Below are positions 30,701 through 33,700 of a stretch of 64,000 bases of DNA, one piece after another. This DNA is from Escherichia coli (GTDB taxonomy: Bacteria; Pseudomonadota; Gammaproteobacteria; Enterobacterales; Enterobacteriaceae): assembly GCF_048403405.1 (NCBI RefSeq), contig NZ_CP183129.1. One strand, 5' to 3'. Made by a program: the position numbers. The stretch's first letter is position 1. The number at the start of each line of letters is the position of its first letter.

Positions 30701-33700
30701 TCTCGGATTGCAGTCAGATTTAATGGACCATTTTACTTTAATGAGCAAAATAATTTAGAACAAGGGCATTATACTGTTGTTGATGCATCAATATCATGGC
30801 ACCCTACAAAGCAATATGAACTTAGTATCTATGCGAAAAATATTGGTGATGCTTTATATCGAACGTATGCATTTGGTAATAAAGCACAGCTAGGTAATCC
30901 GAGAGAGATTGGGGTTCAGGGAAGTATTAACTTTTAGGGTATAGTAAAATCCGCCTGCGCCAAAAAGCGGGTTTTTATTGTCAGCCTTAAACCACCACCT
31001 AAGCAGGTGATGATTGACCCTGTGAGGCTATAGCCTGAAGGAAACCCATGTTAAAAAACTACCTCTTACTCACCACAAGTAAAGAGGAAATAACATGGGT
31101 TTATACAGAAGTTCATCACATGTGTATTGACGTTGCAAATATCATCTAGTTTGGACTCCTAAATATCGTTATAATATATTGAAAGATAAAGTAGGAAAAG
31201 AGCTTTATAGAATAATTTATATTCTCTGCATTATGAAAGACTGTGAAGTATTGGTGCTAAATGTTCAGCCAGACCATGCTTATTTAGTTGTAATGATCCC
31301 ACCTAAACTATCAATATCAACACTAATGGGAGTCCTGAAAGGACGTAGTACGATAAGGTTATATAATCGATTTCCACATATACGTAAGAAACTTTGGGGT
31401 AATCATTTTTGGGCTAGGGGATATTTTGCTGATACGGTGGGGGTTAATGAAGTCATCATTAGGCGTTATGTAAGGCATCAGGATAAAGTTGATCAAGAGC
31501 TCGACCAACAAATGGAATTGTTGGGGGATTAATAAAGAATATAGCCCCCTTATAGGGGGCCCAATTTAAAACCACCTCTTTTAGAGGCGGTATTTTACAC
31601 CCGCCGTTTTCTTTTTTTTCGGAAAACTAATTTCCTATTGAGAGCGCTTGCTTTTCTGCGCACAGTGTGCCTGTGACTTTATTTTGTTAACTCAGGACAG
31701 AAAATGCGTATGAAAACTCTCCCGATATGTCTTGCCCTGACCTCACTGTTGTTGGGGGGCTGTGCAGACAAGCCAGCCCAGCCTACGGAAGCGGCGGCAG
31801 ACATCGCGATTCCGCTCAACGTCGGTTATGCTCAGCCGCTGCTCCCAGATATTTATCCGTCAGCCCCGGAAGTGGTGCGTTATGACCGTTACCGGCTGGT
31901 TGATATTTCGCCTTCACAGGCACAGCGTTACCCGCTGGAACAAATTGTTCATCTGCGTATTCCTGCTTCCGTCTCCCCGACAGTCGGGGATGCGCTACAT
32001 TATGCCCTGCGTGATTCCGGATATCGTCTGTGCACGTCCGATGGACAGGCGAACCACCTTTATCGTTTGCCGTTACCCGCTGTTCATTATCAGATGGGAT
32101 CGATCCGCCTGAATGTGGCGTTACAGATCCTTGTCGGTCCGGCCTGGCAGTTGTGGGTGGATGATGTGCAACGGGAAGTGTGTTACCGACTTCGTCCGGA
32201 ATACACGCCATCTGCGCCGGATGCAGGAATGAGCGGCGCTTCATCCGTCTCTGTGGTCACCCCACTTTCTGCGGGCAGTACGCCATTACCGGTGCCACCG
32301 GTGCTTAACACTTCCACTGGTCATACCGATGTGAATAAGGTTCATCGCGGAGGGTGGCTGAAATGACTCATTCTGAAGAATTGTCCGTAACCCCATTACA
32401 TAAAAAAATTTACCGGGGGGTGATTGTGACGGGCGTGGTCGCCTGTGCTCTGGTGGCCGGTATCCCGCTGTTTATCCACAGTAATGTTATCAGTTCACAC
32501 TCAGAGGCTCTGTCACAACTCGGACAACGATTACAGGCGATTGAGATGAAGATGGCTGACTCTGTCACGGATGACCGGATGAATGCGCAACTGGACGTGC
32601 TCCGTCAGGGGCTGACGACGCTAAAACAGGATGTGGCATCACAGCGCGACACCCTCAGAACGGTGACAGCACAGCTGGCGGTGGCCGGCAAACCGGATGA
32701 ACAGATCGCCGTACTGTCTGACGGGCTGGAAAAACGGCTGGCACAACTGGAAACCCGCCAGGCACAGTGGGCACTGGCGTTACATCAGTTGCAGGAACAG
32801 CGTCAGCCGGAACAAAAAACGGTCAATCCCCCGGTTGTCAGGGCAAAACCCGCCACGCCGGAAACTTCCCGTCTCGGGGCTTCTGTCCGTCCATCCCGGA
32901 CCGTGCCGTTTCAGTTAACCGCGATTGAACAGCGGGGCGGTCGTCTTCTTGCCGCACTGGCTCCTGCGGATATTCGTCAGCTGGGGCAGGTACAGTTACT
33001 GCCGGTAGGCGGACGTTATCAGGGCTGGGAAATGACCGACATTCAGACTGATCGTGTGACATTACGTTATCAGGGGCGCACAGTGACGTTGCGCCTGCCA
33101 TAAAAGGAATGCCGTGATGAAAAACATAAGATGCGTGGTTTTACTGGGTGGGTGTCTGATGTCCGCACCGCTGACAGCTGCACAGTCTGTTTCCGGGGCA
33201 ACCCGACCGGTTCAGATTGAGGCGGGGAAATCGGCTGAGAGTCAGACACAGTCATTGCAGTATGAGGCGCAGGAATGGGGACTGAGTGCGGAGGAGTATG
33301 CCCGTTTTGAGGCGCTGATGAAAGGGCGGCGCGGTATTCAGTCTCCCGGACTGGATCCCCTGACGACATTGGGTATTGAGGCCCGGTCAGACGAAGAGCG
33401 CCGCCGGCTGGCTGAAAAGTGGGTACAGCAGGAATTTGCCAGGGCAGAAAAAGAGCTGGCGTTTCAGCGGGAAGTAGATGCTGCCTGGAAGCGGCTCTAT
33501 GGTCAGGTATTACCGGTCAGTCTGGGAACATTCGGCAGGATGGAACAGGGAACAGCGCAGCGCCGGCAGGCACTGTTTGTGCAGGCGGAAAATTGTAGCG
33601 CGTGTGATGCCCGTCTGGCTACTCTGCTGGCCGGCAAACAGCCGTTTGATATTTATGTGCTGGGGACAAAGGGGGATGATAACCGCCTGAGGGCTTGGGC

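What the first reader, a model, noticed from the sequence alone, without database searches (positions are those of the whole stretch)
31095..31532. IS200-like tnpA interrupted by an in-frame TGA at codon 12
The start context (RBS GAGGAA, ATG 31095) and the HUH-motif region are in one frame, but a TGA precedes the motif. This is either a pseudogene, a sequencing error, or a recoding event; it decides whether this IS can still move.
Basis: seen in the sequence. Interest (0 to 1): 0.3.

Follow-up and report, generated by a model that had tools for sequence, protein, structure and literature searches.

The report
Dead IS200-type transposase gene in ICE
This is an ordinary, long-dead copy of a small IS200-type jumping gene whose transposase carries a real premature stop codon and a ruined catalytic motif, and it travels as a passenger inside a conjugative island shared by Proteus, Providencia and E. 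coli.

Summary
An IS200-like tnpA starts at ATG 31095, has an in-frame TGA at codon 12 (31128-31130) and ends at TAA 31530-31532.

The TGA is not a sequencing error. All 36 independent public records of this locus that I checked carry it: 13 complete E. coli genomes, P. mirabilis, P. stuartii, 2 metagenome contigs and 19 other assemblies.

It is a TGG(Trp)->TGA nonsense mutation. Two independent insertions of the same IS lineage (P. terrae, a P. rettgeri plasmid) have TGG, and most intact relatives have Trp there.

It is not recoding:
- There is no SECIS-like structure after the stop.
- The copy differs from its reconstructed intact ancestor by 10 non-synonymous changes and 1 synonymous change.
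- One of those changes turns the catalytic HUH motif from H-V-H into H-A-Y.

Both end hairpins are also weakened, so repairing the TGA alone would not revive the element. The two sister copies are dead too, each from different lesions.

RefSeq (PGAP) already annotates this gene as a pseudogene with an internal stop. The element is about 622 bp, IS1004/IS200-like, and sits just after the terminator of a TonB-receptor gene, at the boundary between siderophore cargo and conjugation genes in an ICEPm1-like ICE. Low interest; already known.

The parts
30953..30976 (+). Terminator-like hairpin plus T-run (GCCTGCGCCAAAAAGCGGGT TTTT) at the end of the TonB-dependent receptor gene (28949-30937). This is the insertion target; the IS begins directly after the T-run.
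   Evidence: Terminator scan. The two independent insertions of the same IS, in P. terrae and on the P. rettgeri plasmid, also sit directly 3' of a hairpin plus T-run.
30977..31598 (+). Whole IS200-group (IS1004-like) insertion sequence, about 622 bp. The right end is exact (…GGTATTTTAC|). The left end lies somewhere within 30972-30977, because the shared TTTTT could be target or element.
   Evidence: Homology with the independent insertions starts at TTTTTATTGTCAGCC and stops at TTTTAC, and the flanks are unrelated. The BLAST match to plasmid copies spans query 33-659, which is window 30972-31598. No flanking direct repeat and no terminal inverted repeats are visible.
30993..31012 (+). Left-end subterminal hairpin. 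Its counterpart in IS200 is the LE inverted repeat that acts as a terminator; hairpins of this kind are the TnpA recognition structures in this family. In this copy it is weakened.
   Evidence: DNA folding gives -3.7 kcal/mol here, against -9.5 kcal/mol for a perfect 9-bp stem in the P. terrae copy. IS200 architecture is described in PMC4513863.
31042..31102 (+). 5'UTR stem-loop that pairs AAACCCATGTTA with TAACATGGGTTT. It buries the Shine-Dalgarno sequence (AGAGGA, 31083-31088) and the ATG (31095).
   Evidence: RNA fold of -23.9 kcal/mol, z = -4.1, with 0 of 200 shuffles as stable. The structure is kept in relatives of about 73% identity, with 2 compensatory pairs. It matches the IS200 translational repressor element (PMC4513863).
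31095..31532 (+). tnpA pseudogene (Y1/HUH transposase, 145 codons plus stop).
   Evidence: Pfam Y1_Tnp E = 1.9e-37. Matches to solved IS200/IS605 transposases, including ISDra2 and ISHp608 TnpA, E = 1e-17 to 3e-23. PGAP annotates it as 'IS200/IS605 family transposase, pseudo, internal stop'.
31128..31130 (+). Premature stop TGA at codon 12, followed by C. The ancestral codon was TGG (Trp).
   Evidence: TGG in the P. terrae and P. rettgeri copies. Trp in 73 of the 105 relatives that have a residue at this position, and never a stop. TGA in 36 of 36 good-quality records of this locus.
31275..31283 (+). Degenerate HUH motif H61-A62-Y63 (CAT GCT TAT). The ancestral motif was H-V-H.
   Evidence: Aligns to the HUH motif (pdHiHl, pdHvHl) of solved transposases. 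His is present at position 63 in 112 of 118 relatives, and the only two others with Tyr are themselves truncated or frameshifted. Sister copies have CAT GTA CAT and CAT ATT CAT.
31467..31481 (+). Catalytic Tyr125 (TAT 31467-31469) and Gln129 (CAG 31479-31481), forming the YxxxQ motif. Both are still present.
   Evidence: Aligns to ...kYiesQ / kYieeQ of solved TnpA chains. Tyr in 105 and Gln in 100 of the 107 relatives that have a residue at each position. The catalytically dead IS200 mutant is Y125F (PMC4513863).
31544..31560 (.). GC-rich hairpin GCCCCCTTATAGGGGGC just after the stop codon. It scores as terminator-like on the minus strand.
   Evidence: DNA fold of -8.1 kcal/mol; terminator scan. 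A sub-threshold Rfam MicA hit here (26.5 bits against a gathering score of 41) is treated as chance.
31571..31591 (+). Right-end subterminal hairpin CCACCTCT-TTT-AGAGGCGG. It has the same core sequence as the LE hairpin and carries one mismatch in this copy.
   Evidence: DNA folding gives -4.9 kcal/mol here, against -8.2 kcal/mol for a perfect stem in the P. terrae copy.

Best explanation
This is a fixed, decayed pseudogene inside a dead IS200-group (IS1004-like) insertion sequence. The IS inserted once, directly after the intrinsic terminator of a TonB-receptor gene in the siderophore cargo of an ICEPm1-like integrative conjugative element. It then lost function and has since been copied passively with the ICE into Proteus, Providencia and E. 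coli. The TGA is a plain TGG->TGA nonsense mutation of Trp12. The copy also carries H63Y in the catalytic HUH metal-binding motif, eight further amino-acid changes (five of them at positions where at least 90% of relatives agree) and weakened end hairpins. Shown: the stop is real and ancestral to all copies at this locus, TGG was the earlier state, and protein-level constraint is gone. Inferred: the protein would be inactive even if the stop were read through, and the element probably cannot be mobilised efficiently in trans.
For: 1. The TGA is reproducible. An identical 71-nt stretch occurs in 13 of 13 E. coli complete genomes that carry the locus. The same codon is found in P. stuartii NCTC11800 and P. 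mirabilis ATCC 29906, in 2 metagenome contigs and in 19 further NCBI assemblies.
2. TGG is ancestral. Independent insertions in P. terrae and on P. rettgeri pRB151-NDM, 93-96% identical with different flanks, have TGG. Trp is the commonest residue in relatives.
3. Constraint is lost. Against the intact ancestor reconstructed from the three lineages, the ICE copy has 10 non-synonymous changes (including the stop) and 1 synonymous change, pN/pS 2.6. This fits neutrality (P = 0.31) and not omega <= 0.2 (P = 0.0017). Intact relatives show pN about 0.09-0.12 against pS about 0.75-0.84.
4. The HUH motif is H-A-Y. It aligns with the HUH of solved TnpA structures, and position 63 is His in 112 of 118 relatives.
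5. The LE and RE hairpins are weaker than in the P. terrae copy.
6. Downstream of the UGA the RNA fold is -4.2 kcal/mol, z = +0.86, so there is no SECIS-like element.
7. PGAP independently labels the gene a pseudogene with an internal stop.
Against: The catalytic Tyr125 and Gln129, the start context and the 5'UTR stem-loop are all intact. From my own knowledge (Poole, Brown and Tate 1995, not checked here), UGA followed by C is the weakest termination context in E. coli, and near-cognate tRNA-Trp would restore the ancestral residue, so traces of full-length protein cannot be excluded. One low-coverage (2.3x) metagenome contig reads TCA CAT instead of TGA CGT, which gives an open 145-aa frame. 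No activity assay was possible, so 'inactive' is an inference from H63Y and the other substitutions.
Confidence: 0.93

Rival explanations
1. Sequencing or assembly error: the true codon is TGG and the gene is intact.
For: A single metagenome contig (ENA NODE_4137, 2.3x coverage) lacks the stop and reads TCA.
Against: 36 independent records from different laboratories, platforms and four species all read TGA. The deviant contig reads TCA, not TGG. It has 17 mismatches and 4 gaps over 4.7 kb against the window, and its TonB-receptor gene is split into three ORFs. It was also found by a search that favours full-length proteins, among thousands of assemblies of this ICE. Even with TGG the gene would still encode H-A-Y instead of HUH.
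Confidence: 0.01
2. Programmed recoding: the UGA is decoded as selenocysteine, or read through as Trp, to make a functional, tightly limited transposase.
For: The stop is UGA in a UGA-C context, which is leaky in E. coli (my own knowledge, not tested here). The ancestral residue is Trp, which is what near-cognate readthrough would insert. IS200 is known to keep TnpA expression extremely low (PMC4513863).
Against: There is no stable structure downstream of the UGA. The stop is not conserved in sister copies or in any of 118 relatives. Sequence after the stop has accumulated 9 missense changes to 1 synonymous change, including loss of the second HUH histidine. The allele has never been seen at a second insertion site: there is one place per genome in 13 E. 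coli, and every locus recovered has the same flanks.
Confidence: 0.02
3. Exapted remnant: the protein is dead, but the element is retained because its RNA or DNA structures now serve the ICE. Candidates are a 5'tnpA-like small RNA, an antisense art200-like RNA, or terminator hairpins that insulate the siderophore cargo from the conjugation operon.
For: The 5'UTR stem-loop is intact and strongly structured. In Salmonella, the IS200 5'UTR is processed into a regulatory sRNA (PMC5435999 and PMC12594629, seen). The element lies exactly between two convergently organised modules and contains several terminator-like hairpins. It is nearly invariant across 36 records.
Against: That near-invariance is matched by the flanking ICE DNA, so it reflects recent spread, not selection. 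Between the three lineages, non-coding parts diverge as fast as coding parts: about 4% in the LE and about 4% in the CDS, counted. There are no expression data, and the LE hairpin is degraded.
Confidence: 0.04

Closest known systems
IS200 of Salmonella enterica (IS200/IS605 family, IS200 group)
   Same: A single tnpA encoding a Y1/HUH transposase with catalytic Tyr125. [quoted passage not shown] No terminal inverted repeats and no target duplication.
   Different: This element is shorter: about 622 bp against 707 bp, and 145 aa here (IS200 TnpA is about 152 aa, from memory). This copy is dead (W12*, H63Y). Whether it has an art200-like antisense RNA was not tested.
IS1004 of Vibrio cholerae and unnamed IS200-group elements of Vibrio, Hafnia and Salmonella plasmids
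   Same: These are the closest named or intact proteins. Hits named IS1004 transposase are 73-78% identical (P0024, P0029, P0084). Vibrio splendidus TnpA is 80% identical, and unnamed metagenomic clusters with over 1,000 members are 83% identical. The element size is similar; IS1004 is about 628 bp from memory, not checked.
   Different: The relatives are intact, with W12 and HVH. The Morganellaceae sub-lineage (at least 93% nucleotide identity) was found only as three independently inactivated copies.
ISHp608 and ISDra2 TnpA (solved structures 2A6M, 2VJV, 2XM3)
   Same: The same fold family by sequence, E = 1e-17 to 2e-20. The HUH and YxxxQ active-site motifs align. The mechanism is ssDNA 'peel and paste', with recognition of subterminal hairpins (established knowledge).
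   Different: Those elements also carry tnpB, and this one does not. Here the second metal-binding His is replaced by Tyr.
ICEPm1 of Proteus mirabilis (PFGI-1/ICEclc-type ICE carrying the nrp siderophore locus and taaP)
   Same: The host element here has the same gene set: PKS/NRPS siderophore cluster, MFS transporter, TonB receptor, pilL2, traD, the TIGR037xx ICE proteins and taaP. Many protein accessions fall in the WP_0042397xx series, which from memory are Proteus-derived identical-protein records. The identical locus is found in P. mirabilis and P. stuartii.
   Different: The identification as ICEPm1 rests on gene content and my knowledge of Flannery et al. 2009. The ICE ends and attachment site were not examined.

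Membership tests
IS200/IS605 family, IS200 group (as an element) | Encodes a Y1 (HUH-fold) transposase, Pfam Y1_Tnp | tested here: met
   PF01797 E = 1.9e-37, covering profile positions 2-121 of 121, with the stop read as Trp. PDB matches to IS200/IS605 TnpA chains.
IS200/IS605 family, IS200 group (as an element) | tnpA only, no tnpB; element of about 0.6-0.7 kb | tested here: met
   About 622 bp between the boundaries defined by three independent insertions. tnpA is the only ORF with homology.
IS200/IS605 family, IS200 group (as an element) | No terminal inverted repeats and no target-site duplication; subterminal hairpins at both ends | tested here: met
   The ends ATTGTCAGCC… and …GGTATTTTAC are not inverted copies of each other. 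The flanks share no direct repeat in any of the 3 insertions. LE and RE hairpins share the core CCACCTC(C/T).
IS200/IS605 family, IS200 group (as an element) | 5'UTR stem-loop sequestering the SD and start codon (IS200-specific regulation) | tested here: met
   z = -4.1. Conserved in relatives. Described for IS200 in PMC4513863.
Functional (autonomous) IS200-group element | Uninterrupted tnpA reading frame | tested here: not met
   TGA at codon 12 in all 36 good-quality records.
Functional (autonomous) IS200-group element | Intact HUH motif (two metal-binding His) | tested here: not met
   H-A-Y at residues 61-63. His at position 63 in 112 of 118 relatives.
Functional (autonomous) IS200-group element | Catalytic Tyr and Gln (YxxxQ) | tested here: met
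   Y125 and Q129 are present and aligned with those of solved structures.
Functional (autonomous) IS200-group element | Evidence of movement: more than one insertion site for the allele | tested here: not met
   One place per genome in 13 E. coli. All records with the TGA/HAY allele have identical flanks. Actual transposition activity cannot be tested here.
Programmed UGA recoding (selenocysteine or conserved readthrough) | Structured element (SECIS) directly downstream of the UGA | tested here: not met
   Fold of 31128-31190 is -4.2 kcal/mol, z = +0.86, and 159 of 200 shuffles fold at least as well.
Programmed UGA recoding (selenocysteine or conserved readthrough) | The stop codon is conserved among homologues and purifying selection continues downstream | tested here: not met
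   TGG in sister copies, and no stop in 118 relatives. Downstream changes are 9 missense to 1 synonymous.

The most novel reading that the evidence does not exclude
The dead IS may be kept at the cargo/backbone junction of the ICE because its structured left end still does something. It could yield a 5'tnpA-type regulatory small RNA, as Salmonella IS200 does. Leaky UGA-C readthrough could make trace amounts of a cleavage-dead, hairpin-binding TnpA(H63Y). Or its hairpins could insulate the siderophore operon from the conjugation operon.
Probability: 0.04. Interest if true: 0.35.

Novelty: already known. Interest (0 to 1): 0.07.

Why it matters
It matters little beyond correct annotation. The result settles that this IS cannot be counted as an active mobile element in these genomes, and that the stop codon is biological rather than an assembly artefact. 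There are two small by-products. First, the fixed TGA/HAY allele is a convenient clonal marker, showing that the ICEPm1-like element in E. coli, P. mirabilis and P. stuartii descends from one ancestor that already carried the dead IS. Second, three of three independent insertions of this IS lineage lie directly after an intrinsic terminator hairpin and its T-run, which suggests a target preference.

Tried and rejected
1. Sequencing error. Rejected by 36 concordant records.

2. Selenocysteine or readthrough recoding. Rejected: no downstream structure, no conservation of the stop and no constraint downstream.

3. A downstream restart giving a functional shorter protein. Rejected: the first in-frame starts are TTG at codon 29 and ATG at codon 47. 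Neither has a Shine-Dalgarno sequence, and both lose the conserved N-terminal strand CKYHLVWTPKYR.

4. The open-frame protein P0001 (TCA CAT). Traced to one 2.3x-coverage contig that has many differences and a broken neighbouring gene. Its CAT variant (31132 G>A) also occurs in one good assembly that still has TGA (L025). The TCA may therefore be either an error or a neutral change, and neither restores HUH.

5. Rfam scan of the region. It gave only a sub-threshold MicA-like hit on the terminal hairpins, 26.5 bits against a gathering score of 41, treated as chance.

6. Idea that the IS sits in the loop of a terminator formed by its two flanks (GCGGGT…ACCCGC). Folding the joined flanks prefers a hairpin made from the left flank alone. 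The P. terrae and P. rettgeri sites show a complete hairpin plus T-run upstream. Insertion after the terminator is therefore preferred.

7. Search for an empty site or an intact master copy of this sub-lineage. The genome contigs and metagenome-contig scans found only the ICE copy and the two other dead copies. All 19 loci recovered through the neighbouring proteins contain the IS.

8. Literature search for ICEPm1 papers that mention this IS. None was found in the held library.
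Full report
**Observation**

An AGAGGA Shine-Dalgarno sequence (31083-31088) precedes ATG 31095. 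The frame reads MGLYRSSSHVY*RCKYHLVWTPKYR…, with TGA at 31128-31130 (codon 12), and ends at TAA 31530-31532. With the stop read as Trp, the 145-aa product matches Pfam Y1_Tnp across the whole profile (positions 2-121 of 121, E = 1.9e-37). It also matches solved IS200/IS605 transposases, including ISDra2 and ISHp608 TnpA.

The stop is inside the gene, not upstream of its real start. Intact relatives share the same N-terminus, MGLYRSSSHVYWRCKYH. The next possible in-frame start is TTG at codon 29, which lies beyond the first conserved strand.

**Where the window comes from**

The 701 bp around the element are 99.7-100% identical to a single chromosomal place in 13 of 5,426 complete E. coli genomes. 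The annotated neighbours are a PKS/NRPS siderophore cluster, an MFS transporter and a TonB-dependent receptor on the left. On the right are pilL2, traD, the TIGR037xx integrating-conjugative-element genes and taaP.

From my own knowledge (Flannery et al. 2009), this gene set is that of ICEPm1 of Proteus mirabilis. The identical locus is indeed present in P. mirabilis ATCC 29906 and P. stuartii NCTC11800. GC content jumps from 30-38% to 50-59% exactly at the element. RefSeq/PGAP already annotates the gene as 'IS200/IS605 family transposase, pseudogene, internal stop'.

**Is the TGA real?**

Yes. The TGA was found in every good-quality record of this locus:
- A 71-nt query spanning the stop is 100% identical in all 13 E. 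coli genomes.
- The codon is TGA in the Proteus and Providencia reference genomes.
- It is TGA in two metagenome contigs.
- It is TGA in 19 further NCBI assemblies recovered through the neighbouring PilL2 and TonB-receptor proteins.

That makes 36 distinct records.

The only exception is one metagenome contig at 2.3x coverage that reads TCA CAT, giving the open-frame protein P0001. That contig has 17 mismatches and 4 gaps over 4.7 kb, and its neighbouring receptor gene is broken. It was also picked out by a search that favours full-length proteins. Its CAT variant does occur in one good assembly, and that assembly still has TGA (L025). The TCA may therefore be an error or a late neutral change. 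Either way the HUH defect remains.

**What was there before?**

A pattern scan of one genome per species found two further copies of the same IS sub-lineage at unrelated sites: Proteus terrae LMG 28659 and the Providencia rettgeri plasmid pRB151-NDM. They are 93-96% identical to the window copy, and both read TGG at codon 12. Among 118 more distant relatives the position is Trp in 73 and is never a stop. The TGA is therefore a TGG->TGA nonsense mutation.

Both sister copies are dead as well, but from different lesions:
- P. terrae: GAG->TAG at codon 36.
- P. rettgeri: GGA->TGA at codon 34, two 1-bp deletions, and CAA->TAA at codon 139.

A majority-rule ancestor of the three copies is a clean 145-codon ORF with W12 and H-V-H.

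**Pseudogene or recoding?**

Against that ancestor, the ICE copy carries 10 non-synonymous changes and 1 synonymous change. The non-synonymous changes are W12*, K27N, T40I, N46I, E54V, V62A, H63Y, A86T, A120V and E144G. This gives pN/pS 2.6, which is compatible with neutrality (P = 0.31) and not with omega <= 0.2 (P = 0.0017). As a control, intact relatives differ at pN 0.09-0.12 while synonymous sites are saturated at pS 0.75-0.84, which indicates strong purifying selection in the working family.

The most telling change is H63Y. The motif at 31275-31283 reads H-A-Y and aligns with the HUH metal-binding motif of solved transposases. His occupies this position in 112 of 118 relatives. The only two others with Tyr are themselves truncated or frameshifted.

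The 63 nt after the UGA have no SECIS-like structure (-4.2 kcal/mol, z = +0.86). Some copies have decayed further: E. coli elppa4 has an extra G in the G-run near the 3' end. UGA-C is, from memory (Poole et al. 1995), the leakiest stop context in E. coli, and readthrough would insert the ancestral Trp. The resulting protein would still lack the second HUH histidine. I therefore reject programmed recoding.

**Anatomy of the element**

- Boundaries. Comparing the three insertions fixes the right end at 31598 (…GGTATTTTAC|). The left end lies within 30972-30977 (TTTTT|ATTGTCAGCC…).
- Ends. There are no terminal inverted repeats and no target duplication.
- Hairpins. Subterminal hairpins with the same core, CCACCTC(C/T), sit at 30993-31012 and 31571-31591. 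They are perfect 9-bp stems in the P. terrae copy (-9.5 and -8.2 kcal/mol) and weakened here (-3.7 and -4.9 kcal/mol). This suggests, but does not prove, that even a transposase supplied in trans would handle these ends poorly.
- 5'UTR. A 61-nt stem-loop (31042-31102) pairs AAACCCATGTTA with TAACATGGGTTT and buries both the Shine-Dalgarno sequence and the ATG (z = -4.1). It is conserved in relatives of about 73% identity. This is the layout described for IS200, a left-end terminator hairpin followed by an SD-sequestering stem-loop (PMC4513863).
- Target. All three insertions lie directly 3' of a terminator-like hairpin and its T-run.

**Comparison with known elements**

The element is a member of the IS200 group of the IS200/IS605 family. 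The closest named proteins are IS1004 transposases of Vibrio cholerae (73-78% identity). The closest intact proteins are unnamed clusters at 83% identity.

As an element it meets the family definition: Y1 transposase, tnpA only, hairpin ends, no inverted repeats or target duplication, and an IS200-type 5'UTR. As an autonomous element it fails on the open reading frame, on the HUH motif and on any sign of movement, since this allele has only ever been seen at one site.

**Verdict**

The TGA is not the only lesion, so on its own it does not 'decide' mobility. This is ordinary and is already annotated in RefSeq. Its residual value is as a clonal marker for the spread of the ICEPm1-like element across genera.

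Noticed in passing
window 30973-31083; e.g. L012 2501-2611 (NZ_CP060971.1 15114-15224): A stretch of about 111 nt, roughly 80% identical to the IS left end (LE hairpin plus 5'UTR stem-loop, no tnpA), occurs unannotated on well over 100 E. coli plasmids. In the one example examined it lies between a permease gene and a ProQ/FinO-family gene. It may be a solo left-end remnant of a related IS200-group element.
   Followed up: partly
window 30953-30976; L007 3040-3062; L002 2975-3005: All three independent insertions of this IS lineage sit directly 3' of an intrinsic-terminator-like hairpin and its T-run. This suggests a target preference for terminator T-tracts. With n = 3 it is only a hint.
   Followed up: partly
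window 31000-31600 (boundary), profile 26000-36000: The IS lies exactly at a sharp GC step, from 30-38% in the nrp-type PKS/NRPS siderophore cargo to 50-59% in the PFGI-1-class ICE conjugation genes. This is the junction between two modules of different origin in the ICEPm1-like element.
   Followed up: partly
L008 4041-4046 (ENA ERZ27056222 NODE_4137), equivalent to window 31128-31133: A 2.3x-coverage human-associated metagenome contig reads TCA CAT instead of TGA CGT, which reopens the 145-codon frame (protein P0001). The CAT change alone (31132 G>A) is also seen in assembly GCA_052973555.1 (L025), which keeps TGA. Whether the TCA is an error or a real variant is unresolved.
   Followed up: partly
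L001 4011-5998 (E. coli CM IVRI KOL-1); L017 1-1734: The neighbouring TonB-dependent receptor gene is intact in the window (662 aa, 28949-30937). It is split into two CDSs in strain KOL-1 and interrupted by a DDE transposase (IS) in another assembly. The siderophore cargo is therefore decaying in some hosts.
   Followed up: no
L003 about 2090-2117 (E. coli elppa4), equivalent to window 31521-31525: One E. coli copy has an extra G in the G-run near the 3' end of tnpA, which shifts the last codons. The matching truncated ORF product (P0030, ending …LLGGLIKNIAPL) has 57 member sequences, so this secondary frameshift variant is fairly common.
   Followed up: no
window 31048-31149: A 33-codon ORF starts at the ATG inside the 5'UTR stem (CCCATGTT) and overlaps the tnpA start out of frame. 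Gene callers sometimes report it. In some relatives the same upstream ATG is in frame and gives 162-aa 'extended' TnpA calls (P0003, P0006). These are probably mis-calls rather than real extensions.
   Followed up: no
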